Shown piece by piece: positions 10,804 to 45,718 of a DNA stretch of 64,000 nucleotides. The stretch is from positions 72,807,137-72,871,136 of the forward strand of contig JARDVH010000025.1 in assembly GCA_030324005.1 (NCBI GenBank), written 5' to 3'. The first letter of the stretch is position 1. Every line of letters begins with the position of its first letter. A program made the translations under genes and the position numbers. The notes under the pieces are model-generated. The model ran no database searches. It saw only the letters and a list, made by a program, of their open reading frames with translations, and was not told where the DNA came from. Origin of the DNA: Negaprion brevirostris. Lineage: Eukaryota.

Positions 10804-10977
10804 AGTAAGAAATCTAACAACACCAGGTTTAAGTCCAACCGATTTATCTGATAGTAAACTCGCAAGCTTTCGGGGTTTGCCCCTTCATCAGGCGAATGGA
10901 GAGTTCTGGCCTCAGACAGAGCATGCCAGACTTCTTACTGTGTTTACCCCGGTCCAACGCCAGCATCTCCACATCAT
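10804..10977. mobile_element. Short Penelope-like (pLTR-type) insertion with hammerhead motif
   Basis: agtaagaaatctaacaacaccaggtttaagtccaac...cttcttactgtgtttaccccggtccaacgccagcatctccacatcat. Flanked by atatagtagctat (10791-10803) and atataggagctat (10976-10988); splits the CR1 motif DIVAI|TxTWL. Confidence 0.75.
10858..10897 (-). ncRNA. Minimal type I hammerhead ribozyme motif (intact core)
   Basis: Minus strand: AUUCGC CUGAUGA A GGGG-CAAA-CCCC GAAA GC UU GCGAGU. Stem I is 6 bp (one G-U), stem II is 4 bp, and a palindromic AGCU replaces stem III. Confidence 0.7.
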
Positions 10978-12280
10978 ATAGGAGCTATCACAAAGACATG
11001 GTTGAAGGAAGGACACGATTGGCAATTCAACATTCTGGAATATAGAATCGTCAAGCGAGGCAGAGGAGGGGATAAAAGAGGAGGAGGCGGTGCACTATTC
11101 GTTAAGGAGTCAGTTCCTACAGTAAGGAGAGAAGGTATCTTGAAGGGGGCATCAAATGAAGCTTTGTGTGTAGAACTTAGAGGTAAAAAAAGGGGCAACC
11201 ACATTGTTAGGTGTTTATAGACCCCCAGGTAGAGGGATATTGAGGAGTAAATATATGGAGATGTGTAAAAACAATAAGAATAGGATTATTATATTACGTG
11301 ATTTCAACTTTCCCAACATTAACTAGGATGTATATAGTGTTAAGGGCTTGGATGGAAATGTATACAGGAGAACATTTTCGATCAATATATAGTGGGTCCA
11401 ACAAGTGAAGGAACTGTGCTGGACCTAATTCTGGGAAATGAAGCTGGATAGGTGGCTGAGGTGGAGGTGGGCAGCATTTAAGTGATAGTGATCACAATAT
11501 GGTACAATTTAAGTTTGTTATTGACAATGAAATAGACAGGCTGCAAAAGAAAATTTTGGATTGGGGAGAGTGGATTTTAGTAAAATAAGGCAGGATGTGG
11601 CCATAGTAGACTGAGAACAGCTACTAACGGGAAAAATCTACAGAAGAGGAGTTGGGGGGGGCATTCAAAAAGGAAATGGGGAGGGTACAAGCCCAACATG
11701 TTCCTTCTAGGGTGATAGATAGGAGTAATAAGCCCAGAGAACCATGGATGACAAGAGATATCCAGGATACAATGAGAAGAAAAGAAATGCTCTTAGAAAG
11801 TACAACGGGAACAAATCAGTGGATGCATTAGTGAGATTTAGAAAGTGCAGGGTGAAGCTTAAGAAAGCAATTAGGAAAGCAAAGAGGGGATATGAGAAAG
11901 CTCTAGCTTGTAAAAGTAGGGAAAATCCCAAAATATTCTACAAGTATATCAATGGGAAGAGGATAACCAGGGAAAGAGTAGGGCATTTGGGACCATGGGG
12001 ACAATCTGTGGGTGGAGTCAGAGGACATTGGTAGAGTGTTGAATGAATGCTTCACATCTGTCTTCACTCTAAGAATGAGGACGGTAGTATAAAATTCAAG
12101 GAGAGAGACTGTGAGCAATAGACATAGGGAAGGACAAGATATTGGAGGTATTGGCAGCCTCGAATGCGGATAATTCTCCAGATTTGGATAAATTGTACCC
12201 CCAGCTGCTGTGGGAGGCAAGGGAGGAAATTGCAGGGGCTCTGCCCAAATTTTCAGTTTCCATGTGGCTTTTGGGGAGGC

Positions 12281-12363
12281 ATGATATGGAGATGCCAGTG
12301 TTGGACTGGGGTAAACACAGTAAGAAGTCTCACAACACCAGGTTAAAGTCCAACAGGTTTATT
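12281..12363 (-). mobile_element. Penelope-like repeat end (tail plus arm), truncated by an assembly gap
   Basis: atgatatggagatgccagtgttggactggggtaaacacagtaagaagtctcacaacaccaggttaaagtccaacaggtttatt is the reverse complement of the tail seen at 45.7 and 38.5 kb. Confidence 0.75.
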
Positions 12364-13171
12364 NNNNNNNNNNNNNNNNNNNNNNNNNNNNNNNNNNNNN
12401 NNNNNNNNNNNNNNNNNNNNNNNNNNNNNNNNNNNNNNNNNNNNNNNNNNNNNNNNNNNNNNNNNNNNNNNNNNNNNNNNNNNNNNNNNNNNNNNNNNNN
12501 NNNNNNNNNNNNNNNNNNNNNNNNNNNNNNNNNNNNNNNNNNNNNNNNNNNNNNNNNNNNNNNNNNNNNNNNNNNNNNNNNNNNNNNNNNNNNNNNNNNN
12601 NNNNNNNNNNNNNNNNNNNNNNNNNNNNNNNNNNNNNNNNNNNNNNNNNNNNNNNNNNNNNNNNNNNNNNNNNNNNNNNNNNNNNNNNNNNNNNNNNNNN
12701 NNNNNNNNNNNNNNNNNNNNNNNNNNNNNNNNNNNNNNNNNNNNNNNNNNNNNNNNNNNNNNNNNNNNNNNNNNNNNNNNNNNNNNNNNNNNNNNNNNNN
12801 NNNNNNNNNNNNNNNNNNNNNNNNNNNNNNNNNNNNNNNNNNNNNNNNNNNNNNNNNNNNNNNNNNNNNNNNNNNNNNNNNNNNNNNNNNNNNNNNNNNN
12901 NNNNNNNNNNNNNNNNNNNNNNNNNNNNNNNNNNNNNNNNNNNNNNNNNNNNNNNNNNNNNNNNNNNNNNNNNAATTGAACTTTTTGAAGAGGTGACCAA
13001 GCGTGAAGACGAGGGTAGCGCAGTCAATGTAGTTTATATGGGTTTCAGCAAAACCTTTGACAGGGTCCCACATGGGAGGTTTATAAAGAAGGTAAAGGCA
13101 CATGGGATACAGGGTAATTTGATAAAAATGGATTCAAAATTAGCTCAGTTATAGGAGACAGAGGGTGATGA

Positions 13172-13290
13172 GGAAGCCCACACAAATAAGGGAAGAATGT
13201 ACAAACACCACAAAGACCATCACCCAGGTCAGGAATTGAACTCAGCTCTCTGATGCTGTGAGGCAGCGGTGCTAACTACCACGTCACTGT
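13172..13290 (-). mobile_element. HE1-type SINE head fragment
   Basis: ggaagcccacacaaataagggaagaatgtacaaac...tgctgtgaggcagcggtgctaactacc is the reverse complement of a SINE head. Confidence 0.6.
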
Positions 13291-13416: not shown

Positions 13417-14176
13417 AGTGAGGGAGGTGAAGGGTGAAGTGCAGGGGGCCTTTAAACTCTGTTGGGAACTGGGATATTGTGTTGGAGAACCGTCGCGGGT
13501 CTTCTGACTGGCCTGCTTCTATACCCACACATTTCATATACTCCAACATGGTTTACAAACTGCACTGGTAAGAGGAAGCTGGAATGAAAAGACACAAATG
13601 GCCCATGCAATCACCCATGTGTAGGGTGCAGTTTGCGAGATTTGGGAGTGCATAGATTGTATGTTTTTTTTCCAAGCTCAGAGGAAGATTCAGCTGTCAC
13701 AGTGAACCCAGCAAAGAAGTGACCACAACGTGCAGACTCCAGAAGTTGCTCCAGAATTTTAGAGAAATAATGACAGCAGCACTAATGATTTTTCCATCAT
13801 CACAGCTGCAAAATTCAGGGCATAGTAATGAAATTAGTCAAAACATACCTCACTACATGGTACTCTGGAATTATTTTAAACCAATATTTTGGTAGTTCAT
13901 GAAACTGTAATTGAAATTTCTTGACATTTTTTGTGAGAATGAATGTCCTTGATTACTACAAATTTCCTTATTTGTGTGCCTATCATTTTGTCTCTTATTG
14001 GTTTAAAAGCTAGGATCCATGTAAAGGTGATAGTCAACATACAGTATATTGGAAGCAAATAGTTGCCAGCTTATAAATAATTGGGAGGAAGAGGTTAAAT
14101 TGGTTAAAATTGGTTAAACTGTTAAATTGGTGAAATGAGCAGCTGATAAAATGAGGAGTTATGTGTTTTATGTATA

Positions 14177-14500
14177 CTCATAAAAACCCTACAGTGCAGA
14201 AAGAGGCCACCTGGCCCATCGAGTCTGCACCGAGCACAAACCCACCCAGGCCCTATCCCCATATCCCTTCAAATTTACCCACTGATCCCTCTAACCTACG
14301 CATCTCAGGACGCTAAGGGACAATTTTAGCATGGCCAATCAACCTAACCCACACATCTTTGGACGATAGGAGGAAACCGGAGCACCTGGAGGAAACCCAC
14401 ACTGACACAAGGAGAATGTGCAAACTTCACAGACAGTGACCCAAGCCAGGAATCAAACCCAAGTGCTTGGAGCTGTGAAGCAGCAGTGCTAACCACTGTA
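14177..14500 (-). mobile_element. HE1 SINE (V-type core, CR1-like 3' tail)
   Basis: Reverse strand has a tRNA-like head, the core, and the tail ggtgcagactcgatgggccaggtggcctctttctgcactgtaggg. Confidence 0.85.
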
Positions 14501-16485: not shown

Positions 16486-16656
<171 letters not shown>

Positions 16657-18571
16657 CTATCAAAAGAAAACAATGGAATGTGACATATTTAAAAATTCAG
16701 ACATATTGCAGAATGCGTGCACATTGATTTGCATTTGAATAGTTCTATTTTGCCAGTTTTACTACACATTAAAATCAGAAGTCCATCACATAAGGCAATC
16801 AGAACATCTCAGTTGATTTCACATATTCTGCCCGTTAAATGAATAGCATTTGTTCGTTAGTGTCAGCTCTCATACTGCAGAAACAATCCTCAATGTAAGA
16901 AGGTTGGAAACTCACTGGGTTCAAATAGTACACAGATAAATCCTGCAAAATGAACAAGATGACTCAATGTTTTGCTATTAACAATCATTGTTGAATCTTA
17001 TATTGAACCTTTTCCTTGCTGAGGAAAATATACGATTCTCTGAAACACACATTGCCAAAACATACTGCAGCAGATTCACAAATCACATCCACGTTGGAGT
17101 TATTTACAGATGCACATAGAAATTTATCAGGGACTGTACTAGCTAGGTATTAATCCATAGAAAGCTTTACAAAATTGTATGGCTTTGAAAGGATTCAAGG
17201 GCCAGTTAGTCTGAGAAAGAATGGACTAGAAGGATACATTGATAGGGTCAGATGAAATAAAGAGACTTGTGACAAGCACAAAAATCAACATAGATCTGTT
17301 GGGCTGAATGGCCTGTATCTATGCTGTAAAACACTATGCATTCCTGTGAATTGGCTCTCAGTAGCCCCAGTGCCGGCCCTAGCTGTCTTTAAAAAATGTA
17401 CCAAGGCACAACTGAGGACAGGAGAGGGTCTTATTTGGAGTGTCTGCGAGGTAATTGCAAGGGTGATAATTACTTATGGATAACTACATAATACTAAAAT
17501 AGCTACATTGCAATATTCTATTCAAACTGCCATGTTATCAATCCTGTCAAGTAACAATCATTCCCCATAACCTTTAGTCCAAACCCACACTGTACCCACC
17601 TTGCCCATGCGAACCACCCCCCCCACAACTCACGATCAGTACAAATATAACGTGCTCCTGGCCTGTGGCCTCTTCTCCAGCATTTCCCTCTCAACAGGGG
17701 CAAAGCCTGTCAATCAGGCTGACTTTCAGGCTGGGAACCTGTTAAAAAAAAAGCATGCACGCCAATGGAGTTAAAACTCCAAAGAGTTTGTTTAATCCCA
17801 AGCCAGAACCCTTTTCTCCCCAAATTTGGAAATCCCACTCCAATAAATACAGAGGTCAGTAATACTGTACAGTAAAGGCGATAACCTAAAGCTATGTGAC
17901 TTTAGCAAACCATTGTCTTTGAACTTCAAATACAATACAATCACCCAACAATACAGCTTTGAAAAATGTCTTAATGGTCTCCTAGAGTCTCCACACTGGC
18001 TGGTGCTGGTCCCCTCTACTGCCAAGGTAGGTGCACCTTGGCTTGTACACTGTATAAGTGGGTAAGTGAAAGTGTGTCATGACAGTCTTGGGTGTATGCA
18101 CATTTCTTTCTCTCTCGTGCCTTCTCTGACTCTTCCTCCTCCAGAACCAGCCGGTACAGTAATATTAGCAGCAGCATTTCCATTGCCAGAGATGCAGCAG
18201 AGGTACACAAAGTAACAGTAGACAAAACACTGACAAGCAGTAAATGGGAGGAGGGGCAAAGATAAGAAATCAACACAGTGGACTAAAAAAAAGGAAAGGA
18301 AATTTGCCAGAATGTGAAAAATAGCTGTTATAGACAACCATGCTAAATTTAAGGAAATAAAATAAGAGGGTAGATTTACACTTGCCATACAGGCATAAAA
18401 CTGGCATTGCAGATCAGTTAACCCTTGCATAGCTCACATAATTTTAATTTGCATTCAAATCACACAAGCCCAGTTTTACAGAATTCATTGCCACAGAAGG
18501 CTGTCAAAGCCAGGTCATTGAGTATATTTAGGATAGAGATAGACAGGGGAAAGGCGGAAGAATGGGGTTGA

Positions 18572-18938
18572 GAGTGGTATTGTCACTGGATTCGTAATCC
18601 CAGGGTAATGCTCTGGGTCCTGGGTTTGAATCCTGCCATGGCAGATGGTGGAATTTGAATTCAATAAAAAAAATCTGAAATTAAGAATCTATTGATGACC
18701 ATGAAACCATTGTCGATTGTCGNNNNNNNNNNNNNNNNNNNNNNNNNNNNNNNNNNNNNNNNNNNNNNNNNNNNNNNNNNNNNNNNNNNNNNNNNNNNNN
18801 NNNNNNNNNNNNNNNNNNNNNNGTGGTTGACTCTCAACGGCCCTCCAAGGGCAACTACGGATGGGCAAACTGCCCTCCAAGGGCAACTAGGGATAAGTAC
18901 TGGCGAGCCAGCAACACCCCTGTCCCATGAATGAAAAG
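18572..18938 (+). mobile_element. tRNA-derived SINE with L2-like tail (gap inside)
   Basis: gtggtattgtcactggattcgtaatcccagggtaatgctctgggtcctgggtttgaatcc...gggcaactagggataag...ccagcaacacccctgtcccatgaatgaaaa; internal 18-bp duplication gccctccaagggcaacta. Confidence 0.75.
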
Positions 18939-20623
18939 AAGAAACTTATCAGCTATGGTTGAATTGTGGAGCAGATTCAATGGGCCAAATGGCGTAATTC
19001 TGCTCCTGTATCTTATGCTCTTATGCCTAAGCGGTAAATTGAAATCTACCCTAATATTTCCCATTAAGACTAGAAGCCCCAAAAATGTTTTAGTGAGTCG
19101 CAAGCTAAATGATGAATGTTTGCAGCATTTTTCCAGTGCTGATTCCAGTTTACAGAAATAACAAATCACTTCAATAAATTTGGTATGGTTAATGAGAGAA
19201 ATGCAATCTATACTTACTCATTTTCTGATCCCTCGTGCAAGGATAACTTTGAGAGATCAATTGGCATGCAGACAAGTTAATGTACACCCTTCTTTTTTGA
19301 TTGACACCTGCATTGCCAATGTGTGTCATTATGGAATTATCCGTGGCATCAACAATGTTGCGAATTGCAGCAATGGTGCAGACCTGGCTCACGTCTGCTG
19401 GGGTCAGGACAGTTACTCTGCTCCTGATGCTATCAACATTGAATATGTTTATGCCGAAGGCTGACTGATTCCTGTTAGGCAAGTGAATGTTTTCAGAGAT
19501 AGATGGGAATGTGGAATTCAAGACACAAGCTGGTTAGCCTTGATCATACTGAATGATGGAGCAGGAACGTGGGGCCAAATACTTCTGCTCCTACTTTGTA
19601 AGTTTGTATATGATACTTCCACTCGCAGTAATCCTTTGCATTACTGAAATATCTCCCTCATATTCCTTTTTTCCCCCATAAACATTCTATAAATTTTCTC
19701 ATATAGAGTTAAATCAAAGTGTTGAATGTCTATAATATAAACTGAGTAAGTAACCTCTCAAAGTGCATTCTGACCATTCATGTTTGAGTTAGCTGGGGAA
19801 ACACAATTTGCATCCTCCATTTACCAAATCCACCACAAATATCAGTAGAAAGTGCTTCACGAATATCAGTACATAGGTTTGTACTAACTGATGTCAAGCA
19901 TAAATCCCATGCTCTGCTAATCCACCTACCACAAATAAGGAAACAATAATCGGGGAAATAATAACTTACGCCTGCTCTGGATATTGACTTTTTAAAATCT
20001 CCTTGCAAAACTATGTGCACTCATCCATTTGGACAACTAGTGCTTCCTTTCTGACTAAAAGAGGTCATAAAGTGATACAAGGTTACAATGCTTGGAAAAT
20101 ATTTGTATACGTATTAAAATATTCATATCTTTAGTAATGAGTGAATAGACCAATGGAGGAAAGCCTAACAGGGGATCACAGGCACATATAACCTTTTGGA
20201 GAGAAACTGGAATTACATTTCCGTTTCTTGTTACTGGCATTAAAAACATTTAAAGTGGCCTAAATTATTTAACATGCTGGAAACAGAAAGCAATTTGTCA
20301 GCGGACAGAAATGGTCCTATCGTACCAGAAGAGACAGCTGCAAGTAAAGCACTTCCCACAGGAACAGCTCCTGTATCCAGAACAATTAACTGGCGGGTCT
20401 AAATGTTGCACATTATCAAACTGCTTAACTCTTGTATCACTTAAACATCATTGTCCTGCATCTTTCTCTGTCAGACGTTTATGAAGGTCAATACTTCCAG
20501 ACAAATATCCATCTCTTTTCCCTTAGCTGTTTGTGGTGAGGCTACAAATAGACTCCAAATAAACTAACACAGAAGCAAAATGTGCCACAGATGCTAAACT
20601 CTGGAATACATAAAAAATAAAAG

Positions 20624-21760
20624 GTTGACATCAAGGCAACATTCAGTTTGGCTCCAAAAAATATTAGCAAGACTCTGATTCATAGAAAATCATCCAATGG
20701 TTGAGTGAAAATAGTCATGGTTATAATCGGCCAATCAAAGTTCTTTAGAGTAGTGTCCTCAAGCCTACCATCTTCAACAACAAATAATATCACTCCTTCA
20801 ACCAGAGATGTTAATTCTGTTTCTGTCTCCAGGTGCTGGCTGACCTGCTGCATATTTCAGAAACTCTCTATGTTTACTCTACCTAAGCTATTTAGATTAT
20901 ACTGAATTTTGCTCTATTCAGTATTTCATTTAGGACTCGAGGCTTCCTCTGCCACTTTGTCAAGAAGTTGGGAAAACCTGACCAGAAGTAGCATTTTCTT
21001 TAGTTCTTACGTGTGTGTAAATGAATATCTGGCTTCTTCAAAATTAAAAGAATATGAGTTTCAAAATGTTAGGATACATGCAATTAAAAACTATTAGACA
21101 ACATCTGTCACATGTGATTACATGTTAGGTTGCTGGTCATTTAGCAATGTGACATCACAACAGCTAAAGTCTCACTCCATTCTCTGACACAGTTTCCTAT
21201 AAGCAAACAATTACTGTTTATTTTGGTAAGTAAAACAATATTAATAAAAACTGACTTTGTTTGACTTCTTAAAATGCTGAAATTTGTGCTTTTTGTTCAA
21301 AATATTTTAGCTTCTTTACAATAATTCTGAACTTTTGTCCATCTTTACCACACTGCCAAAGGGTACAGGCTGGGCCTTTACTTTATGAACATAATTATTA
21401 TCTGACATTTCTGTAGTGTGTATATTACCTACCATCTTCCAGCCCACAACTTAGTCTTACCCAGTCCTACCATGGGTGGTACAGCCTGTTCCATTTCCAA
21501 ACAAGTTGTGAATGGAGCTGAGCGCTGTACAATTATCAGTGAACAGTATAATTCATCATGTTATGACAAAGGGAGTGATGTTATTTGTTGTTGAAGATGG
21601 TAGGCCTGAGGACACTACTCTAAAGAACATTGATTGGCCGATTATAACCATGACTATTTTCCTGCATGCCATATTTCACTCAACTGTTGGGTGATTTTCT
21701 ATGAATCAGAGTCTTGCTAGTATTTCTTGGTGCCAAACTGAATGTTGCCTTGATGTCAAC
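20624..21760. repeat. Inverted repeat: arms 20624-20796 and 21572-21760, ~775-bp spacer
   Basis: gttgacatcaaggcaacattcagtttgg...caaataatatcactcc is the reverse complement of ggagtgatgttatttg...ccaaactgaatgttgccttgatgtcaac, with scattered mismatches and one ~16-bp indel. Confidence 0.9.
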
Positions 21761-21835
21761 TTTACTAACTCTTGTTCCTGCTCTGGCATTCTGATCTTAC
21801 AAAATCTTTCTATGCATGGATCAGTGCTTTGTTGA

Positions 21836-24000: not shown

Positions 24001-26085
24001 TGGTAAATAAAATGCTATATATATGTTTATTCTGATAAGAAATAACATTTATTTCATGCAACAAAATGTATGACATGCTTTACAGAGAAGTGCTGAATAA
24101 TGAGCCAGGAATCCATGTTCCCAATATTGCTATGATGGAAAGACAGGACATAAACAATACCCCTCTCACTACATCATTTGAACGTCATCCAAATNNNNNN
24201 NNNNNNNNNNNNNNNNNNNNNNNNNNNNNNNNNNACACCTTTTACATCTTTGGGCTCAATTTGTCCAATGTTTTAATTCAACCAGCTTTCTGAGCTGTAC
24301 ACTACTTAATCTCCAAAGAGATTAAGTAGTGTACCATGTGCTCCCAATTTCACATTAATTTGTGCTTGCTCTGTCATCCCAGCCTCCAGTGGCTCTTCCC
24401 TCACTCCAAGAGATGCAGTCACTCATTATCAAATCATCATTGATTTTGCTCCTCTATATTTCTGCAGTCTTCTCCAGTCCCATGCCCCTGTTTATTTCCC
24501 TCATTTGCAGATAATTTTAACTTGGGCATAATTCCACTTTGACCATCAATGGTAGAGACTTCAACAATTTGATCCAGTACCATGTAACTCTCACTCTAAA
24601 GTCCTTCACCATATTACTTCTGTCCCTACTTTTAAAGCTTCCTCAAAACCCAACTCCTGGACGATGGTTTTGTCACTTCCCTAAAACCTTTGCTCTTTTG
24701 CAAAGAACCTCGGGATGTTTATTGAATGAAAGGCACTATCTAAATGTAAGTAGTTGGTTGCAGCAAAGCCAATTTGACTAAAATAATCATCTGTGGAAAT
24801 GTAACATAATGGCCAGGTATCTATGACAGGATTCAATCTGTTGCACGTCAAAATAACCAGACATCCTTTGGAAAATACTTAACACTTTGAACTGATTTTA
24901 GCCAAAGGCAAATGCTGCGGCATTGCTGAAACCAGTTCATATTTGAAACATCTAACAAAAACTTTTCCCAAAAATATTCTCTCTTATTTTTAAGTCTGTC
25001 AGGGAAGTGTAAATAAGTATAAAATATTTTTGACAAACATAATAAACTTATCCTGTTTCTCAATCCAATGAATGTGTATTCACATCAACAAGAAAAAAAT
25101 TGCTAATGTTGCCAAATTACTGCCTTTAAAATATCTGCCCACAGACTGTGTTCCAATATCTGTATACAGCTAATGTTTAAAAATAGATTCAAATGTCCGG
25201 TTACTTGCTGAAAATATGACACAGCAATATTTCACATTTTAAAATTTTTACCGTAGCAAATGACTAAATACTATTCTCTTTTTGTAGAAAATTATACTTG
25301 AAACTACAGAGAGAAACATTCCCCATGTATACTTATCACCCATCACACGCCCCATGAAATTACAGTGCTTATAACAAGCAGTGCACACTTCTTCCCAGCT
25401 TCGAATCGCTTCCCACATCCCCACTTCTCTAAGTAGTAAATTTGAGTGGCCACCTCCAGGAACATTCCATAGTTCTGAAGGGGCTCTTAAATCCAGCACC
25501 AGCAGTAAATCCTGTTCTGATTATTCTTCTTCTCCGCGGTCACACCAGGATGAATCTCCCAGAATCCTGAGATGGCTGTAGGATTCCCTCTTTGACTAGA
25601 GATCATCTATTTTCCACATCTAGTTGTGATAGCTCACAATGTCATGCAGGGTCTCCTTGCTGCTAACTACGTAAAGCTGCTGCCCATCTGAAATAATCAT
25701 TGATTTGCAGGGAAACTTGTAACCTGATCTCAAAATGGCTTTCTTGCCCTCTTTCCCATGGCAACACATTAACTTTGCATCCGGGTAGAAATGCTGACTA
25801 GTTGTTTTTGACTTCAGCTCCCTTTCATCTTAGAAGTAAATGGACAGTTACTGCACAACTGTTTGCAACCAGATACATAGAACACCATTCTGGGACTTTG
25901 AGTAAGCTCATTGTAAAATCAGAGACAAGCTAAGTGTAAATACCTTGCACTTTTGCCACAGTAATTTAAACCTTCCTTTGATTACAAACAATTAAACCTC
26001 ACTGGCTTACTGTCAGGCAGATTTCAGAACAAGTCATCTGACTATCTTTGTCCACCCTAAATGTGAAGCTACAGTCTCAAAACAT

Positions 26086-26340
26086 GATGTGGAAATGCTG
26101 GCGTTGGACTGGGGTAGGCACAGTAAGAAGTCTCACAACACCAGGTTGAAGTCTAACTGTTTACTGTTATTTCATATGACTCGCATTCCAACCATTACCT
26201 TGTAATTGAGTCTGTGTCTATATATTCCCTGTTTGTGAACCCAACTCCCACTCACCTGGTAAAGGAACAGTGCTCCGAAAGCTTGTGCTACGAAATAAAC
26301 CTGTTGGACTTCAACCTGGTTTTGAGAGACTTCTCACTGT
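26086..26340. mobile_element. Penelope-like insertion with inverted arms, tail and degenerate hammerhead
   Basis: Tail plus arm at 26086-26160; inverted arm at ~26295-26340; cacCTGGTAAaggaacagtgctccGAAAgcTTgtg at 26253-26287; flanks gtctcaaaacat (26074-26085) and gtcccaaaacat (26339-26350). Confidence 0.75.
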
Positions 26341-28002
26341 CCCAAAACATAACAATCGTATAAACTTCATAATTGTAACAGATTGTCAAAACCAGTAACT
26401 GTCTCTTTTTATTGAAATCCAACATATCAGGCTCATGGTCCTTTCCTCTGTGTCAAAGTCAGTCCAACAAGAGGATTGACCATTGTTGTCTAGTTATAAT
26501 GCAGGGTCTGTTCCCAAATTATTATTCTATTCTTCACCTTACAGATGCTGAGCAACTTTCTGGACATTTCTAGTATTTCTTATCTTTATTTCACATTTGC
26601 ATCACTTTCTTTATATTTCTTGAGTTAAATCTAAAAGTCTGAGGTGCAAAAAAGTGGCTCAAAACAAAAACTTTAGAACGGAATATAACCAGAATGAATT
26701 GACTCAGATTTCGAGGTAGTAATGAGGCAGGACTGCCAGCCCTCATCATTATTACTCCTCTGAAACTGACATCAATCTCTGGAGCCCATACATACACAAT
26801 AAATGAAAAATCCAGAAGTTGCCATTGAGGCTACCTTTGCTAATCAAGTGTTTTGCTCAAGTTCCTTCAACCATCCCCTCACCATCCCACCTGCCTGCTC
26901 ACTCCCAAAGTCTGCAATCAATTAGAAATCACTGAATTGATGAGAATCTACCTTTTGGGGCTATTAACCTTGGTATAAAAGTCCTTGAAAAAGTTACACC
27001 TTGCTGAATGAGGTTTAACTGAGTTTTTAATGACCTACTAAGTTGATATTTTCTGTGACCAGCCTCACTGGCCCTGAAAAACCCTAAAAACTTCTCCAAT
27101 ATGATAAAAAAGATTCCATATTTTTACTTTTTACAAGTATTTTATCTTCTACTTTCAATTCCGTGCAGATGGTCAAATCATGGTTTTGTCCTCTGTAAAA
27201 TTTAATTAGAAGTGGGGGGGGGTAAACAATGCATTTTACTTCTTGCTTTGCTGTCAGTAAGAATATTTTCTTTTACTCTGCTTGGTGACATCACTGTTGC
27301 TGGATACCTAGAGATCTCCTTGACTTGACACTAAATTATATCTAATCTTGGTAAAGGGGAAATCCACACCACTGAGATTGCCAGATCCTTGTGGGCAGCT
27401 CCCTTCCATGTTAGTGGTGATTATCATGATTTTACCGATGACTATGAAATTCCAGGCAACACGCCAGTAAAAAGCTGGGGTTTGAATGTTTGTGAATGTG
27501 CAACTGAAGGTCCAATGTAGCATTGGAGAGAGGATTGCAGAAAACCTGGAGACATGGAATAATTAAGCATCATTCATGCCATTTCCTCAGTTACAGTGGA
27601 TGACAGCCAGATCTCTTATGGAAGTCAGGTAGGAGAATTAAACAATAATGAATGATGGATAAAAATAGCTTGCATGTATAAATAGGATAATTTTGCAAAC
27701 CTCTGCTTCCAGTGTGGCGTTTGGCTCGATGGGATCAGGGTTCACAGAATCAACCCTTGCGTATTATAACCCTTCCTCTGAATGTACTTCTGCTTAGTCA
27801 GACTCCATGTCACATGTTCATTTTCAGGAAAATAACACCAAGTTGCCTAACAGAGGAGAAACAGGTGGCATGGAGTACCAGTAAAGTTAGGTAAAAAATC
27901 AAAAGCATGACTGAAAAAATAGTTTAAGGAAAATGTAGATATATAGAGAAATAGTAAGGTCAAGGGTTTTATGGATTATGCTGCAGAGAGCAGGGCTGAC
28001 AG

Positions 28003-30107: not shown

Positions 30108-30385
30108 CAGAATAGAATCACTACAGTACAGGAGGCCATTCAGCCCAGCGGTTCCACACCAACTCTCCAATAGACTATCTTACCCAGGCCTACATGCTGC
30201 CCCATCCCATGATCCCACACATTTACCCCACTGATCCCCTTAACCTGCACATCGTGGAACACTAATGGGCAATTTGGCACGGGCAGTCCCCCTAACTTGC
30301 ACATCATTGGACTGTGCGAGAAAATTGGAGCACCCGGAGGAAGCCCACGCAGACAAGGGGAGAAGGTGCAACCTCCACAGAGGGA
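30108..30385 (-). mobile_element. HE1 SINE (CR1-like tail); head degraded or in the gap
   Basis: atagaatcactacagtacaggaggccattcagccc...ggagcacccggaggaagcccacgcagacaaggggagaaggtgcaacctccacag. Confidence 0.8.
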
Positions 30386-31410: not shown

Positions 31411-31760
31411 GTTGGCATGATGTCCCAGTGCCACCATAGTTAGTACAGCTGCCTCACAGCACCAGGGACCGGGGTTCAATTCCAGCCTTGGGTGACTGCT
31501 GGTATAGAGTTTGCTGTGCAGGGTGCTTTAGTTTTCCCCACAGTCCAAATGTGTGCAGGTTAGCTAGATTGGTTTTGGCATTAAATTGCCCCTTAGTGTC
31601 CCAAGATGTGTAGGTTAGGTGGGGTGAGCCATGGTAAATGTGTGGGATTACAGAGATAGAGAGGGGGAGAGGCCTGGGTAAAATACTCTGTCCGAGAGTT
31701 GGTGCAGACTTGATGGGCCATATGGCCTCTTCTGTACACTAAGGATTCAATGATGATTGA
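31411..31760 (+). mobile_element. HE1 SINE (CR1-like tail)
   Basis: gctgcctcacagcaccagggaccggggttcaattcc...ggtgcagacttgatgggccatatggcctcttctgtacactaaggattc. Confidence 0.8.
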
Positions 31761-32040
31761 CATCATGACATTCAAAAGGAACTAATCTGACTTACTGTGT
31801 TTGCTGATCAACCTCAGGAGTTCTGGAAGTNNNNNNNNNNTGAAGCTGAAAATCCAAGCAGCATTGGTAACAAGATCTACTTGCCCAAACTATGCTGCTG
31901 ACCTTTCCAAAGTTTGTAGGGTTGGGGAATTCCATTCCTTTGGCATATCACAGGCACACCAGGGGCAGATTAGATCCACCTGCATCACCTCCCCAAGGAA
32001 GCAGAATGCCCAGGTGAAGAGAGCAGGTCAAGGAATGTTG

Positions 32041-32385
32041 GGCAGCACGGTAGCACAGTGGTTAGCACTGCTGCTTCACAGCTCCAGGGACCTGTGTTCG
32101 ATTCCCGGCTTAGGTCCCTGGTTGTGTGNNNNNNNNNNNNNNNNNNNNNNNNNNNNNNNNNNNNNNNNNNNNNNNNNNNNNNNNNNNNNNNNNNNNNNNN
32201 NNNNCAAAGATGTGTGGGTTAGGTTGATTAGCCATACTAAAAATTGCCCCTTAGTGTCCTGAGGTTAGAGGGATTAATGGGTAAAGTGAGTAGGGATATG
32301 GCGGTCGGGCCTGGGAGGGATTGTGATCGGTGCAGACTCAAAGGGCCAAATGGCCTCTTTCTGCACTGTAAGGATTCTATGATTG
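32041..32385 (+). mobile_element. HE1 SINE (CR1-like tail)
   Basis: ggcagcacggtagcacagtggttagcactgctgcttcacagctccagggacctgtgttcgattccc...ggcctctttctgcactgtaaggattctatgatt. Confidence 0.85.
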
Positions 32386-33220
32386 TAGATGCCCTCTACT
32401 GTTTCCTTACTAAGATTGAACCATTTTTTTATTCTCATATTCAGAGGTTCAGTTTCAGTCTCAAACGGAATAATTCACAATGATGACTATAATGTCAGCC
32501 TCATTATCCATCACAAATGGTCAGATTATGGTGATATAGGCCTTGAGTTGTACTGTCAGCTATATTTTAGAGAGCAGATAGGCAAGTGGTGGGGATCCGT
32601 TTGCGGCTTATAGAACTCTAGGCATGATGACATAGAACTCAGAGGCATAGCCAAGCCTAAAATAGCAATGCATGACTTTGTGCCTCACAATGGCAACACA
32701 ACATTTTACCACTTTTCCACCGAATAGTTTACTTTGCTCACAGGGGAAATTAGGGATTGCCAATAAATGCTTGTCTGAGGTTGACACATTCCAAACAAAT
32801 AAATATCAGAAAGCTGGGATGGACTGCAACTGCAGACTGCCATGCCCATGAACCAGCTGGGTTTTACCTAGAGATTACAAACTAATTCAATTCCAGTAAC
32901 TTCTTCCAGGTTCACACCATCTGTAACCTCAAATGTGATAGCACGGTGCACAAGATTAGGCAGACACAAGTTGTTAGGAAGAGGGAGAATCATGGTAGCA
33001 GGCACTAGGATCAGAGACACATCATACTTCAGGTGATAAAACATGGCAGCACCTTAGTAGCAGCACCCAGAGAGTTTTGTTTATATGGTCCTGGAAGATA
33101 TACCTGTAAGTGAGAGAATTGTTATGGCTGACGAGTATAAAGACTGCTGTGTGAATAAAGCTGATGGTGACTTTTTCCCAAAGCAAGGGCTGTTGGTGAA
33201 AGCCATAAATGGAAATAAAT

Positions 33221-33315
33221 CCCACAACACCAGTTTAAAGTCCAACAAGTTTATTTGTAGCAAATGCCGCAAGCTTTAGGAACAGGCTGTCCCTTCGTCA
33301 GGTGGCTGGGAGAAA
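33221..33315 (-). mobile_element. Penelope-like arm with mutated hammerhead motif
   Basis: Minus strand GCCAC CUGACGA A GGGAC-AGCCU-GUUCC UAAA GC UU GCGGC (33266-33306); GAAA is mutated to UAAA. Confidence 0.65.
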
Positions 33316-33424
33316 ACCATGGTCAGGGTACTTATGAAGCCAGAAAACATATATGAGAGACAGTCATATAACTTCTTCAGGTATGATTCCTGACACTTTG
33401 GCCATAGCTGAACACATACTGGCA

Positions 33425-33591
33425 TATAGTTAGTATTGCTTCCTCACAGTGACCTGGATTCAGGTACCAGCTTAGGTCATTCAGTGTCTGTGTGGAGTTT
33501 GCATGCTCACCCCATGTCTCTGTGGGTTTCCTCTGGGTACTTTGGTTTCCTCCCACAGTCTGAAAGATGTGCTGGTTAGTGCATTCGTCAT
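33425..33591 (+). mobile_element. HE1/V-type SINE 5' part, running into a gap
   Basis: gtctgtgtggagtttgcatgctcaccccatgtctctgtgggtttcctctgggtactttggtttcctcccacagtctgaaagatgtgctggttag. Confidence 0.75.
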
Positions 33592-34874: not shown

Positions 34875-35160
34875 GTTAGCACTGCTGCCTCATCGTGTCA
34901 GAGACCCAGGTTCGGTTCCTGGCTTGGATCACTGTGCGGAGTTTGTGCGTTCTCCCCTCGTCCATGTGAGTTCCCTTTGAGTGCTCCAGTTTCCTCCCAC
35001 AATCCATAAGACATGCTGGATAGGTGCATTGGCCATGCTAAATTTTCCCTCAGTGTACCTAAATAGGCACTGGAATGTGGCCACGGGGGGATTTTCATAG
35101 TAACTTCATTACAGGGTTAATGTAAGCCTACTTGTGAAACTAATAAATAGACTTAAACTT
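34875..35160 (+). mobile_element. HE1/V-type SINE, aataaataaacttt-tail variant
   Basis: gttagcactgctgcctc...ccctcagtgtacc...ggggattttcatagtaacttcatt...taataaatagacttaaactt. Confidence 0.8.
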
Positions 35161-35474
35161 ACAATGATTTGCTGACAATAAACAGGCAGAAACAATGGGT
35201 TTCAATTGCAGGTCTGCATACTTGGGAGATGATTTTAGTCAGCATTGCAAGTTCCTTGGTCCATTAATTTTAATGGACATATGCAGACCACTAAATTCTG
35301 TGCTTGGAAACTATATATGTTATATATAGCACCCTGAATACAAAATTCCATGTTAAGAGGATTCATTCATAAAGTCTTCACTATCATCTCCACTAGGTGC
35401 TTTCCTGAATGATTTAGACTGGGAACTTTACATTTAACAATTGCTGGTATGAACCTATCCTTTATTATCCCTTA

Positions 35475-36917
<1,443 letters not shown>

Positions 36918-37918
36918 TTATAATAGGGACTAAACAATCCTGACATTGCTAATAACATGGGGCCTTAACCAGTGGCAGTGGTGGTAATTATGTTGGAGAG
37001 ATCGCTATATTTCTTCGACAATGAACATGCTGAGGCCCTGATTCCGGCACAGCTATGTCACTGTGCAGGCTGACACAGAAACATGCTTTCAGATTCCCCA
37101 CATACAACTTTTTAAATTAGTTAAAGAAATGGGCTAAGGTCCAGCTAAGCTAGCAGACAGAAGAAATGTGAAACACAAAGCAATGCCTTTTGATACATTC
37201 CTTACTGACCTTACTGTATATTAGCCAGTCTCTGAAGGCGCTGCACAGAAATAAAGATTAAATAGTCTAAAGGTCAAGCAGAGTTAGAAGGTGGGATATA
37301 ATTGGATAATGCCAACAGACGATGGCAAAGATAAAGGCCAAAAGAGAGAAAATTGAGTAAGATAGGTTGGGTTTGAAGGAAAATATAGAGTGGGATTGGC
37401 GGCCACTAAGCAAAGTAGAGAAAGGCTCCAGCGAAGACGAGTGTTGGCGTCGATGAAGTAAAGGAGAGTAAGAGATCCATGAAGAAGAGACAATGGTAAA
37501 ACATTAGAAGATTCCTCAGTGAAGGGTGAAGCATGGTCAAAGGGTTAAAGAGTCTATCCTGTTCCTAAATTCAGAGCAGAGTCAGAGAGTCAGATTTTTG
37601 TGGTATTGCGGGGTTGAGGGGGACGGGGTTTGGCGAAGCAGCTACTAATACCAACTAAGCATTCAACAGGAGGGAGCCGGAAGTGGCAGCAGGAGCCACT
37701 TTGGCCGGGCTTACAGCAGAGCAGTGACTGGGAGAGTCCAGAACATCAAATTGGAAGAGGAGTGAGAAGAAGTTTTGACAATAACAAACTGGTATCACAG
37801 TTATTGCTCTAAAGTTTACAATTAAAAATGTCAAATTTTGAAAAAACTAGTCAAGTACTCTTATTGGAGAGCATTGTGGCTGAGGGGAAGCAGACGAGGA
37901 AGTGCTCTGTGGTACCAC

Positions 37919-38591
37919 TCTGTCTGAGGCCAGAACTCTCCATTCACCTGACGAAGAGGGTGACCCCTCGAAAGCTTGTGGGTTTATTATCAAANNNNNN
38001 NNNNNNNNNNNNNNNNNNNNNNNNNNNNNNNNNNNNNNNNNNNNNNNNNNNNNNNNNNNNNNNNNNNNNNNNNNNNNNNNNNNNNNNNNNNNNNNNNNNN
38101 NNNNNNNNNNNNNNNNNNNNNNNNNNNNNNNNNNNNNNNNNNNNNNNNNNNNNNNNNNNNNNNNNNNNNNNNNNNNNNNNNNNNNNNNNNNNNNNNNNNN
38201 NNNNNNNNNNNNNNNNNNNNNNNNNNNNNNNNNNNNNNNNNNNNNNNNNNNNNNNNNNNNNNNNNNNNNNNNNNNNNNNNNNNNNNNNNNNNNNNNNNNN
38301 NNNNNNNNNNNNNNNNNNNNNNNNNNNNNNNNNNNNNNNNNNNNNNNNNNNNNNNNNNNNNNNNNNNNNNNNNNNNNNNNNNNNNNNNNNNNNNNNNNNN
38401 NNNNNNNNNNNNNNNNNNNNNNNNNNNNNNNNNNNNNNNNNNNNNNNNNNNNNNNNNNNNNNNNNNNNNNNNNNNNNNGACCCCTCGAAAGCTTGTGGGT
38501 TTATTATCAAATAAATCGGTTGGACTAAAACCTGGAGTTGTCAGACTTTTTACTGTGTTTACCCCAGTCCAACGCCGGCATACCCACATCA
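37919..38591 (+). mobile_element. Penelope-like insertion with hammerhead motif and tail, spanning a gap
   Basis: Same arm and tail family (ends tactgtgtttaccccagtccaacgccggcatacccacatca); flanked by gtaccac at 37912-37918 and 38592-38598. Confidence 0.75.
37942..37983 (+). ncRNA. Minimal type I hammerhead ribozyme motif (intact core)
   Basis: AUUCAC CUGACGA A GAGGG-UGAC-CCCUC GAAA GC UU GUGGGU. Stem I is 6 bp (two G-U), stem II is a perfect 5 bp, palindromic AGCU. Confidence 0.7.
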
Positions 38592-38659
38592 GTACCACCT
38601 AGTGGCCAGAGCATGCAGGTGAAAGCCAGGCTTCTCACAAAACACAAAAAAACTCTCAA

Positions 38660-43300: not shown

Positions 43301-44715
43301 GTCAATGCATTGGTTTTAATTTTCCAAAGTTCCCTCGCTTTGGGAAAGGTTCGACAAGATTAGAAAACAGCCAATGCAATTCCTTTATTCAAAAAGGGAG
43401 GGAGACAAGGGCAGGAAACCACAGGCCAGTTAGCCTAACATCTATGACAGGGAAAATGTTAGAAGTTATTATTAAAGATATTATACTAGAGCGCTTAGAA
43501 AAAAATAGACAATGTCGATGTGGTTTTGTGAAAAGGAAATCATGTTTAACCAAATTACTGAAGTTCTTTGAAGAAGTAACACATGCTGTGGACAAAGTGG
43601 ATGCATTGTATTTACATTTGCAGAAGGTATCTGATAAGGTGCCACATCAAAGGTTATTGCTAAAATTATAAGTTCATTATGTAGGGAGCAACAAATTGGC
43701 ATAAAAAGAAGATTGAGTAATAAACAGGAAACATATGGTAGACACAAGTAAGCTTTTTTCTGATTGGGAAGATGGAATGAATGACGTGCCAAAAGGATCA
43801 GTGCTGCAACTTCAATTTTTTACAATTTATATAAATCACTTGGATGAAAGGANNNNNNNNNNNNNNNNNNNNNNNNNNNNNNNNNNNNNNNNNNNNNNNN
43901 NNNNNNNNNNNNNNNNNNNNNNNNNNNNNNNNNNNNNNNNNNNNNNNNNNNNNNNNNNNNNNNNNNNNNNNNNNNNNNNNNNNNNNNAGTGGGAAATTGT
44001 CCATTTTGGTTGGAAAATTGAAAAAGAAGCATATTGTCTAAATAGCGAGAGCTCCGAGATACCGAGGGATCTGGGTGGCCAAGTGCCTGCATCTCAAAAG
44101 GCTAATATGCAGATGCAGAAAGTAATTGAGAAAGCTAATAGAATGTTATAATTTATTGCAATGGGAATTGAGTACAAAAGAAGAAAGGTTATGTTTCAGT
44201 TAAACAGGACATTGGTGAGATCACATCTGGAGTACTATGTATTGTATTGGTCTCTTACTTAAAGAATGAAATAATCGGATTGGACGTAGCTCAAAGAAAA
44301 CTTACTAAACTAATACTTGATTGGACAGTTTGCTTTAAGAGGCTAGACCTGTGACTGGTGGAGCTTAGAAGAGCGATAGGTGACTTGATTGAAACATTTC
44401 AGATCCTGAGGGATCTTGATATTATCGATACACAGTGGATATTTCCTCTTGTGGGAGGCCACTGTTTAAAAATAAAGGGTCACCTATTTAAGACAGTGAT
44501 GAGGATTTTTTCTTCTCTTGAAGATCGAGAGCCTTTGGAACTCTCTTCCACAAAAGGCAAGGGAAGCAGATTCTTGATGAACGAGGGATGAAATGTGATT
44601 GGGGGTAGACAAGAATGTAGAGTTAGGGTTACAATCAATATCAACTATGATTTCATTGAATGGCAGAGCAGGTTTGAGGGGCTGAGTGGCTACTCTTCTT
44701 AATTTATATGTTTTT
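40400..44715 (+). mobile_element. Near full-length, inactivated CR1-clade LINE (ORF1 Cys-rich/esterase-like; ORF2 APE endonuclease plus RT; 3' tail)
   Basis: ORF1 from ATG at ~40798 (MAGQMMC...; later VACPVPG and VVVAHVG-like motifs). ORF2 SIHSKTDELRVQI..YDLIAITE..GEGVALLI; GNHRPVSLTSMTGKMLE; GFVKRKSCLTKLLKFFEEVT; KVSDKVPHQRLL; VPKGSVL. 3' end tgaatggcagagcaggtttgaggggctgagtggctactc. Many stops; the 5' boundary is approximate. Confidence 0.9.
42899..42985. mobile_element. 87-bp MITE inserted in CR1 ORF2, PIF/Harbinger-like
   Basis: Termini gggcggaatctta...taagatcatacc with an AAT duplication (42896-42898 and 42986-42988). Removing it restores the reading NIKTMVRVS, at the position of the CR1 NIKTxxKSF-type segment. 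Confidence 0.65.
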
Positions 44716-45097
44716 CTGAGCGAATAATACTTTTTCCATCTTCCATGCAACGAATTATGTTTGTATGCTCATACATTTGAGCAAATGTATTTGATCCAAA
44801 ATAAACACTTAGAAAAGATGATGATCAACTTTAACAAAACTGACAGCTCAAAAAACACCACACAATTGAAAATCAGCACAAACTATAGCCATCAAATGAA
44901 AGTGACTGAATAACTTAAACTTACTGATCTTTCGCTAAATCTCAGGATACTTTTGTGTTTGGGATCACATTCCATAATTCAATTTATTTTTCCATGACCA
45001 AAATCTCAATAGTCTCATGTTGAACTTGACTGTGAATGGGATCGTGAGGATACCAAAACATTATTGAGGGAAAGCAGACACTAAAGTGCACTTCTGT

Positions 45098-45375
45098 GCA
45101 CGGCAGCAAGTGGTTAGCACTGCTGTCTCACAGTGCCAGGGACCTGGGTTCGATTCCCGGCTTGGGTCATTGTCTGTGAGGAGTCTGCACATTCTCCGTG
45201 TCTGTGTGTGTTTCCTCTCAGTCCGAAAGACGTGCTGGTTAGGTGCATTGACCATGCTAAATTCTGTCTCAGTGTACTCATCAGAGTGTGGCAACTAGGG
45301 GATTTTCACAGTAACTTCATTGCAGTATTAATGTAAACCTACTTGTGACACTAATAAATTAACTTAGAAACTTAA
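45098..45375 (+). mobile_element. HE1/V-type SINE, aataaataaacttt-tail variant
   Basis: gcacggcagcaagtggttagcactgctgtctcacagtgccagggacctgggttcgattcccggcttgggtc...gtgacactaataaattaactt. Confidence 0.85.
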
Positions 45376-45477
45376 AAAGGCAAGTTTTCTGGATACGCTT
45401 AGCCAGGGTAGAAAATGTTGAAATCACTACAAGCATACAATGGACAAGGAAGGTAGTGGCACTGTTACTGGACTATT

Positions 45478-45718
45478 CACAGTAAAAAGTCTCACAACAC
45501 CAGGTTAAAGACCAATAGTTTATTTGTAGTAAACGCCAGTAGCTTTCGGAACTGGCTGTTCCTTCATCAGGTGGGCGGGAGTTCAGAACGGACGAAGGAC
45601 GGGCCAGTTCCGAAAGCTAGTGGCGTTTGCTATAAATAAACCTTTTGGAGTTTAACCTGGTGTTGTGAGACTTCTTACTGTGTTTACCCCAGTCCAACGC
45701 TGGCATCTCCACATCATG
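45478..45718. mobile_element. Palindromic Penelope-like element with a hammerhead motif in each arm
   Basis: Arms 45478-45569 and ~45590-45682 are near-perfect reverse complements. A ~36-bp tail (45683-45718) is on one side only. Flanks actggactattca (45467-45479) and actggactaatca (45719-45731). Confidence 0.8.

What the first reader, a model, noticed from the sequence alone, without database searches (positions are those of the whole stretch)
10804..45718. Family of short Penelope-like elements carrying co-varying minimal hammerhead ribozymes (at least 6 copies in GAREM2 introns)
Seen: copies at 10.8, 12.3, 26.1, 33.2, 37.9 and 45.5 kb share an arm (cacagtaagaagtctcacaacaccaggttaaagtccaac...). 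Five show a one-sided ~36-bp tail and four have 7-13 bp, mostly imperfect, flanking duplications. Five show the pattern stemI-CUGANGA-A-stemII-GAAA-GC-UH-stemI', intact or with point changes. Stem II sequence differs between copies but pairing is kept: GGGG/CCCC, GAGGG/CCCUC, GGAAC/GUUCC, GGGAC/GUUCC. Stem I swaps CAC/GUG for CGC/GCG. Established: Penelope-like elements carry minimal type I hammerheads in their pLTRs, with a vestigial palindromic stem III thought to act as a dimer, and often insert with an inverted pLTR plus a tail. An extra A after A9 occurs in a natural viroid hammerhead (CChMVd). Inference: several subfamilies of a shark PLE, or a non-autonomous retrozyme-like element, with ribozymes under structural selection. 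I cannot tell whether this family is already catalogued.
Basis: partly seen in the sequence, partly recalled or inferred. Interest (0 to 1): 0.8.

Follow-up and report, generated by a model that had tools for sequence, protein, structure and literature searches.

The report
Truncated shark Penelope retrotransposon ends
These are six short, decaying leftovers of a shark jumping gene whose tip carries a tiny self-cutting RNA, a well-described arrangement in animals, so the find is real but mostly ordinary.

Summary
Six intronic loci (A-F) share one arm. Five carry a minimal type I hammerhead, but only two (A, E) have an intact core and both stems. Five have the 34-36 bp tail; four have clear target-site duplications and a fifth a weaker one.

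The tail's reading frame runs straight into the initiator codon of a shark Penelope-like ORF in 6 of 10 database gene models. Relatives of that ORF carry RT and a GIY-YIG-like end with a Neptune/Nematis-type linker. The loci are therefore 5'-truncated, ORF-less insertions of an autonomous endonuclease-bearing PLE, not retrozymes.

Stem II covariation is real by eye but cannot be significant with about three independent types (8 of 120 permutations). It reflects different master elements; the copies decay as if neutral. Minimal hammerheads, the extra A, covarying families, opposite-strand pairs, one-sided tails and PLE-rich shark introns are all published. Small additions: the tail ends at the ORF's AUG, and each of 3 two-armed insertions has exactly one tail. 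Verdict: new member of a known kind; interest 0.22.

The parts
10804..10977 (.). Locus A: two-armed head-to-head insertion. Left arm on minus (10804-10921, no tail, hammerhead), right arm on plus (10927-10977, with tail 10943-10977). Sits in a LINE-like endonuclease remnant.
10858..10897 (-). Intact minimal type I hammerhead A (C3 at 10891, H17 at 10864; stem I 6 bp, stem II 4 bp); sense to the host pre-mRNA
10791..10803 (+). Target-site duplication of A, left copy (right copy 10976-10988, 12/13)
12280..12363 (-). Locus B: arm plus tail (tail 12280-12315, ending in ATG); runs into N gap 12364-12973; no hammerhead visible
26083..26340 (.). Locus C: left arm on minus with tail (26083 to about 26176), right arm on plus without tail (about 26176-26340); 8-bp palindrome at the junction (26172-26179)
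26253..26287 (+). Decayed hammerhead C (C3 at 26256; A6G, G8A; one stem II mismatch)
26071..26085 (+). Target-site duplication of C, left copy (right copy 26336-26350, 13/15)
33210..33336 (-). Locus D: single arm without tail; candidate duplication 33200-33209 / 33337-33346 (9/10)
33267..33305 (-). Hammerhead D (C3 at 33301; G12U; one stem I mismatch)
37918..38591 (+). Locus E: single arm with tail (38558-38591), interrupted by N gap 37995-38478 whose flanks overlap by 33 identical bases (probably one copy of about 157 bp); duplication 37912-37918 / 38592-38598 (7/7)
37942..37983 (+). Intact minimal type I hammerhead E (C3 at 37948, H17 at 37977; stem II 5 bp); antisense to the host pre-mRNA
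45478..45718 (.). Locus F: left arm on minus without tail (45478-45585), right arm on plus with tail (45586-45718; tail 45683-45718 ending in ATG); duplication 45467-45479 / 45719-45731 (12/13)
45534..45576 (-). Hammerhead F-left (C3 at 45570; core intact, first stem I pair broken)
45591..45625 (+). Hammerhead F-right, cut inside the first core box; lacks the 5' strand of stem I
35472..36917 (-). Context: open frame holding the large CABIT-domain exon of the GAREM-type host gene; other exons near 53.07-53.17 kb, 16486-16656 and 2929-3943 (SAM)

Best explanation
The six loci are dead, heavily 5'-truncated insertions of an autonomous endonuclease-bearing Penelope-like retrotransposon of sharks, probably of the Neptune type. 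Only the tip of the terminal repeat (pLTR) was copied: hammerhead, AATAAA, an inner end point, and a 36-nt tail that ends at the AUG of the element's ORF.

Mechanism: (1) Read-through RNA from a tandem or partial-tandem master copy is bound by the element's RT/GIY-YIG protein (inferred from PLE biology). (2) The protein makes a staggered cut 7-13 bp apart (shown by the duplications). (3) Reverse transcription starts inside the RNA at one of two sites 36 nt apart (end points shown; initiation inferred from Poseidon_Ac, PMC11167929). (4) In two-armed loci both DNA ends are primed, one at each site; the cDNAs stop after 50-170 nt and join head to head (anatomy shown; two-ended priming inferred, about 0.55). 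(5) The template was usually uncleaved, since 6 arms cross the scissile bond (shown).

The ribozyme lacks a stem III, so it can cut only as a dimer of two pLTRs or with help from the element's protein (inferred from PMC4209133 and PMC11167929). Stem II differences mark at least three master subfamilies in which pairing was maintained; the genomic copies themselves drift.
For: Link to the ORF: a profile of the arm+tail frame finds 4 proteins among 1.84 billion, among them a Rhincodon typus gene model and P0003, whose first 95 residues match shark PLE ORFs (5 hits of 31 candidates). P0006 (Heptranchias perlo), found with a query lacking the tail, reads through the tail peptide into the Met that aligns with the first Met of P0005, P0008 and P0009. 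Of 10 hits, 6 carry the tail peptide directly before that position (P0006, P0012-P0016; Met changed in P0012), 2 start at that Met, 2 enter further inside. Window B tail versus P0013 12/16 and P0015 9/9 identical. P0009 (881 aa, 53% to P0003's N-terminal part) has RVT_1 (E 4e-10), a DKG motif, a CX4CxxC linker and a C-terminus whose nearest Atlas clusters carry GIY-YIG in 18-47% of members. Anatomy: one tail in each of 3 two-armed loci, duplications at 4-5 of 6 loci, matching PMC8557442 and PMC3846280. Hammerhead matches the min-HHR consensus in the supplement of PMC4209133.
Against: No PLE ORF remnant in the window (tblastn with 9 proteins), and no DNA of a full-length element could be fetched (genome-contig scan empty; no eukaryotic DNA collection). 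The link rests on predicted proteins; the query itself contained the tail peptide. The full-length P0009 is a relative from an unnamed record (48-56% identical to the shark proteins), not the shark master. No RT phylogeny was made, so Neptune is a motif-based call. Palindromes at all 3 head-to-head junctions (chance about 0.008, post hoc) fit fold-back self-priming as well as two-ended priming. Catalysis was not tested.
Confidence: 0.88

Rival explanations
1. The loci come from a short non-autonomous element (non-LTR retrozyme or mini-PLE) mobilised in trans, with unit-length RNA defined by hammerhead cleavage or by a fixed start.
For: All visible insertions are under 270 bp and ORF-less. A-left and E share a 5' end 30 nt before C3. 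E has a 33-bp repeat across a 484-N gap. Retrozymes are reported in one chondrichthyan genome (10.64898/2026.07.22.740005).
Against: No tandem array overlaps a locus (5 TRF rows, none here). The other 5' ends differ widely. 6 arms cross the cleavage site. The 33/33 identity at E contrasts with 38/48 and 43/47 between arms of one insertion, so it is more likely an assembly overlap. The tail continues into a PLE ORF.
Confidence: 0.08
2. The element is a PLE as described, but the inverted arms arise by fold-back self-priming (proposed in PMC3846280) and the tail by endonuclease resolution of the intermediate (suggested in PMC8557442), not by priming at both DNA ends.
For: Palindromes at 3 of 3 junctions: 6 bp (A), 8 bp (C), 4+1+4 (F); 20% of random 13-nt windows have one.
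Against: Both arm ends fall within 0-3 nt of two fixed RNA positions. The Poseidon_Ac protein nicks and extends both strands and starts at two sites that bound the tail. The outer ends share 0-3 nt with the duplications (sum 9 over 7 ends, read by eye, P about 0.007), as expected if both ends primed.
Confidence: 0.35
3. The apparent covariation is not selection for catalysis; it comes from templated repair of a DNA/RNA hairpin and from CpG decay.
For: The stem I swap sits on a CpG on both strands in copy A. Strand permutations give 8 of 120 (stem II) and 48 of 120 (stem I). Only about three independent stem II types are present.
Against: A and E differ by a base pair added on both strands of stem II while the 30 nt upstream match at 29 of 30. 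Core bases and G10.1-C11.1 are constant apart from 3 changes. 6 of 9 pairs change on both sides (alignment fitted to the structure, 7 rows including one spurious hit and one partial copy, relatedness not controlled). The same pattern holds across 56 animal families in PMC4209133.
Confidence: 0.15
4. One or more copies have been adopted by the host as intronic ribozymes acting on the GAREM pre-mRNA.
For: Copy A is intact and on the sense strand of the host gene and folds into stems I and II as a monomer (z -2.4).
Against: 2 intact of 5 is what neutral decay at about 10% predicts (P(all 13 intact)=0.24 each). A has no stem III and no partner nearer than 22 kb. It sits in a LINE remnant, and its own inverted right arm does not cover the ribozyme.
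Confidence: 0.02

Closest known systems
Minimal type I hammerheads in pLTRs of metazoan PLEs (Cervera and de la Pena 2014, PMC4209133)
   Same: Core boxes, one extra base between 9 and 10.1, G10.1-C11.1, palindromic 15.2-16.2, short stem I, families with compensatory changes, mostly single dispersed motifs, and opposite-strand pairs 100-700 bp apart.
   Different: No chondrichthyan among the accessions of Table S1 or the rows of Fig. S3 as read. Stem II here is 4-5 bp, at the short end of their range.
Poseidon_Ac of Anolis carolinensis (Frangieh et al. 2024, PMC11167929)
   Same: Hammerhead, then two end points that bound a 30-40 bp tail; uncleaved RNA is the template; similar distance from stem II to the outer end (111-118 nt there; 119 in E, 122 in F, about 114 inferred for the C type; that their figure is the outer site is my inference).
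   Different: There the ORF starts at stem II and the tail is coding. Here the tail is leader sequence that ends at the AUG, and the related ORF has the CX2-5CxxC linker that Penelope/Poseidon lack.
Neptune (and Nematis) clade of C-terminal EN+ PLEs (Craig et al. 2021, PMC8557442)
   Same: Related full-length ORF has RT, DKG, CX4CxxC linker and GIY-YIG-like end; insertions are 5'-truncated, with an inverted copy and a tail often at one end only.
   Different: No microsatellite target at these 6 loci; clade not tested by RT tree.
Non-LTR retrozymes (PMC7229834; bioRxiv 10.64898/2026.07.22.740005)
   Same: Type I hammerhead, non-coding copies, kinship with PLE pLTRs.
   Different: Retrozymes are head-to-tail arrays of 150-450 bp units; these loci are single or head-to-head, with variable 5' ends, tails and duplications.

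Membership tests
EN+ Penelope-like element (truncated insertions) | Terminal sequence belongs to an element whose single ORF encodes RT and a GIY-YIG endonuclease | tested here: met
   Met at protein level: tail peptide precedes the ORF's first Met in 6 of 10 hits; full-length relative P0009 has RVT_1 and a GIY-YIG-like end. The six copies hold no ORF themselves; DNA of a full-length master was not available.
EN+ Penelope-like element (truncated insertions) | Hammerhead motif in the pLTR | tested here: met
   5 loci, 2 intact
EN+ Penelope-like element (truncated insertions) | 30-40 bp tail, often at one end only | tested here: met
   34-36 bp at 5 of 6 loci; one per insertion in 3 of 3 two-armed loci
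EN+ Penelope-like element (truncated insertions) | 5' truncation with an adjacent inverted copy | tested here: met
   A, C, F
EN+ Penelope-like element (truncated insertions) | Variable-length target-site duplication | tested here: met
   A, C, E, F clear; D weak; B hidden by a gap
EN+ Penelope-like element (truncated insertions) | Tandem or partial-tandem copies forming direct pLTRs | tested here: inconclusive
   Only the 33-bp repeat across the E gap, more likely an assembly overlap
Neptune/Nematis clades | CX2-5CxxC linker between RT and endonuclease | tested here: met
   CX4CxxC in P0009; the CxxC part in P0007. These are relatives, not the master of these copies.
Neptune/Nematis clades | Placement by RT phylogeny | not testable with these tools
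Minimal type I hammerhead (min-HHR) | Core boxes, extra base after 9, G10.1-C11.1, palindromic 15.2-16.2, stems I and II | tested here: met
   All met in A and E; partly decayed in C, D, F
Minimal type I hammerhead (min-HHR) | Self-cleavage 3' of H17 as dimer or with protein help | not testable with these tools
   Bench test needed; 8 of 9 Xenopus dimers did not cleave in 10.64898/2026.07.22.740005
Rfam hammerhead families | Match to a curated covariance model | tested here: not met
   6 matches at E<=10 in the window, none a hammerhead, none at these loci; minimal forms lack stem III
Non-LTR retrozyme | Head-to-tail array with at least two complete hammerheads | tested here: not met
   E gap unresolved
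Non-LTR retrozyme | Expressed as unit-length circular RNA | not testable with these tools
   no RNA data

The most novel reading that the evidence does not exclude
These mini-insertions record the PLE integration step almost without noise. A dimeric RT-endonuclease primes both cut DNA ends, one at each of two RNA start sites, so every two-armed insertion has exactly one tail. The outer site sits a fixed distance (about 115-120 nt) from the hammerhead in both Poseidon and this Neptune-type family, and here it coincides with the AUG. The hammerhead fold would then serve as a ruler or binding platform for initiation rather than mainly as a cutter. Thousands of shark copies would make this directly testable by counting.
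Probability: 0.25. Interest if true: 0.55.

Novelty: new member of a known kind. Interest (0 to 1): 0.22.

Why it matters
As found, it adds sharks to the animals whose Penelope-like elements carry minimal hammerheads and ties a common shark repeat to its parent ORF. That is useful for annotation: the tail and ORF start leak into shark gene models. It does not change what is known about hammerheads or PLEs. The value lies in the open question of how PLEs make inverted ends and one-sided tails and what their ribozyme is for. Six copies in 64 kb suggests a very large natural data set for testing two-ended priming.

Tried and rejected
Rfam scan: no hammerhead family matched. The core heptamer alone is not enriched (41 matches, 37.6 expected). 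Relaxed descriptor hits at 9.1 and 22.0 kb and model hit 9053-9081 are single, low-scoring and unrelated to the arm: chance. A word-seeded protein search with the 40-residue E frame found nothing (5 candidates); the profile search did. No PLE ORF remnant in the window. No copy in bacterial/archaeal genome contigs. No solved structure related to P0009. A diverged tail at D: a 6-nt match lies at the right offset, but the local alignment is no better than shuffles (994 of 1000) and lies outside the candidate duplication; rejected. Homology of D's and C's upstream parts: not significant (337 of 1000). The hairpin around the inner end point: strong only in B (z -1.9), weak in E, F, C; not claimed. 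A full-length element in B's gap: host LINE colinearity leaves room for roughly 250 bp only (weak left anchor, E 0.002). The organism of P0007 and P0012-P0017 stayed unknown. Dfam/Repbase, eukaryotic genome DNA, viral and metagenome contigs were not available, so whether the family is catalogued stayed unchecked. Supplements of the bioRxiv preprint (which shark, which families) could not be seen and may already list this family.


Full report

2. Anatomy. Read in the ribozyme's sense, each arm runs: hammerhead, AATAAA about 15 nt later, about 45 nt more to an inner end point, then optionally a 36-nt tail. A, C and F have two arms joined head to head, so both element 3' ends face outward. In each of these 3 loci one arm stops at the inner point (within 3 nt) and the other carries the tail. 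E is one arm with a tail, D one arm without, and B shows a tail with the rest hidden. Duplications: A 12/13, C 11/13, F 12/13, E 7/7, against 5 and 23 of 3368 random pairs; D 9/10, against 57 of 1500. The 5' ends differ, except that A-left and E both start 30 nt before C3. Six arms (A-left, C-right, D, E, F-left, F-right) cross the predicted cleavage site, so their template was not cut there. All 3 junctions hold a short palindrome (chance about 0.008, post hoc). E's gap is flanked by 33 identical bases, the longest such overlap of 22 gaps (next 8). Arms within one insertion differ far more (38/48 and 43/47), so an assembly overlap is likelier than an array.

3. The ribozyme. A strict minimal-hammerhead descriptor finds A and E, against 1 hit in all 300 shuffles. 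A model built from the five copies recovers them by construction, adds F-right weakly (E 0.26) and one spurious hit. Rfam gives no hammerhead. C has A6G and G8A and a stem II mismatch, D has G12U and a stem I mismatch, F-left has lost the first stem I pair. Stem II is paired in 19 of 20 cells over four pairs, with two-sided changes. On the model-fitted alignment 6 of 9 pairs change on both sides and 0 of 500 column shuffles reach 90% pairing, but that test ignores relatedness and included the two weak rows. Swapping whole 3' strands among the five copies gives 8 of 120 for stem II and 48 of 120 for stem I: three copies share one stem II type, so five copies cannot give significance. The best single sign is a base pair added on both strands between A and E, whose upstream 30 nt match at 29. 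The stem I swap sits on CpGs and is weak evidence. Three core changes in 65 positions, against 6.8 expected from arm divergence (P=0.08), gives no case for selection on the copies.

4. Link to a PLE ORF. A profile of the arm+tail reading frame (7 window stretches) hit 4 of 1.84 billion proteins. One is a Rhincodon typus gene model. Another, P0003, begins with 95 residues that match shark proteins at 70-85% and an 881-residue protein, P0009, at 53% (5 hits of 31 candidates). P0009 has RVT_1, DKG, a CX4CxxC linker and a GIY-YIG-like end: the features PMC8557442 gives for Neptune/Nematis PLEs. P0006 (Heptranchias perlo), found without the tail in the query, reads through the tail peptide into the Met that aligns with the first Met of P0005, P0008 and P0009. 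Of 10 hits to that region (31 candidates), 6 have the tail peptide directly before this position, 2 start at the Met and 2 enter further inside. The B tail matches P0013 at 12/16 and P0015 at 9/9. The window tails of B, C and F end in ATG. So the tail is the last 36 nt of the leader and ends at the start codon. Limits: these are predicted proteins, the query held the tail peptide, no full-length DNA was available, and the window holds no ORF remnant.

5. Mechanism. Best reading (0.88): dead 5'-truncated insertions of an autonomous EN+ PLE. Staggered cutting and two fixed end points are shown. Internal initiation at two sites is inferred from Poseidon_Ac, whose protein nicks and extends both strands, starts at two sites bounding the tail, uses uncleaved RNA and is needed for ribozyme cleavage. 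Two-ended priming (about 0.55) explains one tail per two-armed locus and the 0-3 nt overlaps with the duplications (sum 9 over 7 ends, read by eye, P about 0.007). Fold-back self-priming (PMC3846280) remains a serious rival because of the junction palindromes. The ribozyme, with no stem III, most likely works as a dimer or with protein help in master transcripts. Retrozyme origin (0.08) and host adoption (0.02) are unlikely.

6. What is known. PMC4209133 (read: parts 1-2 of 4 of the text, parts 1-2 of 3 of the supplement) reports minimal hammerheads in PLEs of fishes, coelacanth, Xenopus and reptiles, with the extra base, G10.1-C11.1, the palindrome, covarying families and opposite-strand pairs; no shark appears in the table or alignment as read. 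PMC8557442 (passages) and PMC3846280 (passages) describe inverted copies, tails at one end and duplications. PMC11167929 (parts 1-2 of 4; two supplement files gave little text) gives the biochemistry. bioRxiv 10.64898/2026.07.22.740005 (parts 1-3 of 5, passages; supplements closed) finds retrozymes in one chondrichthyan and names Neptune and Poseidon as the vertebrate clades. bioRxiv 10.1101/443036 (passages) reports PLE expansion in whale shark introns. PMC6155905 and PMC7229834 were seen as passages; 10.1101/2025.06.08.657570 had no match for the terms. Searches listed no paper on a shark PLE hammerhead, on a tail ending at the start codon, or on twin priming in PLEs; the library lacks most subscription journals, and Dfam/Repbase were not searchable. 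The CChMVd attribution of the extra A is recalled; PMC4209133 cites it only as seen in some canonical hammerheads.

7. Verdict. Real, correctly recognised as PLE-like, and a new member of a known kind, probably already in repeat libraries under some name. Interest 0.22. The boldest reading still open is that one tail per two-armed insertion, a conserved hammerhead-to-start distance (111-118 nt in Poseidon_Ac; 119 and 122 in E and F) and initiation at the AUG reveal how a dimeric PLE protein integrates (probability 0.25, interest 0.55); it rests on three loci.

Noticed in passing
window 10921 and 37918: Arms A-left and E, of the same subfamily, start at the same position, 30 nt before C3. It could mark an RNA 5' end, an RT stop, or a short master element.
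   Followed up: partly
window tails, e.g. 45683-45692 and 12306-12315 (minus): The first 10 nt of the tail end in a pyrimidine run and CAG, with a branch-point-like motif just before the inner end point. Four gene models (P0006, P0012, P0014, P0015) begin their match exactly at the codon spanning this CAG. It may be a leader-intron acceptor as in Drosophila Penelope, or only attractive to gene predictors. A's copy has CGG there.
   Followed up: no
window 26163-26180: C's left arm may extend, after a 3-nt insert, to the first base after the cleavage site (11 of 14 matches by eye); it would be the only arm ending there. The same bases form the junction palindrome, so this is ambiguous.
   Followed up: partly
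window 37995-38478: N gap of 484 with a 33-bp exact overlap of its flanks; probably a false gap, but a real tandem of pLTRs cannot be excluded.
   Followed up: partly
window 10726-11217 and 12115-13154: A and B are nested in LINE-like ORF2 remnants (CR1/L2 type by recall). At A the duplicated target reads as the same short peptide on both sides, which independently supports the duplication.
   Followed up: partly
P0001 and P0002: Their translations across the ribozyme imply a further stem II variant with G-C at the fourth pair, where C has a mismatch and D and F have A-U (inferred from fixed codon positions).
   Followed up: partly
P0003, P0004, P0010, P0011, P0012, P0015: Shark gene models often absorb this element: PLE N-terminus fused to a chitinase-like or Ig-domain protein, or arm+tail as a false last exon.
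   Followed up: no
window 1410-1700, 4584-4731, 13170-13279, 14170-14499, 30112-30385, 31435-32390, 33428-33591, 34875-35169, 45098-45377, 52609-52667, 62800-63108: A second, more abundant repeat family of about 300 bp (SINE-like by recall), at least 11 places.
   Followed up: no
window 20621-20796 / 21572-21763 and 6369-6537 / 18562-18720: Two pairs of inverted repeats (86% and 78% identical); the first, 800 bp apart, could be the ends of a DNA transposon.
   Followed up: no
window 24278-24350: A hairpin with a weak mir-143 model match (21.9 bits, gathering score 60); probably a small inverted repeat.
   Followed up: no
minus-strand arms at A, B, C, D, F: These put AATAAA (A, B, D, F) or the acceptor-like tail (B, C) on the sense strand of the host introns; possible cryptic processing sites.
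   Followed up: no
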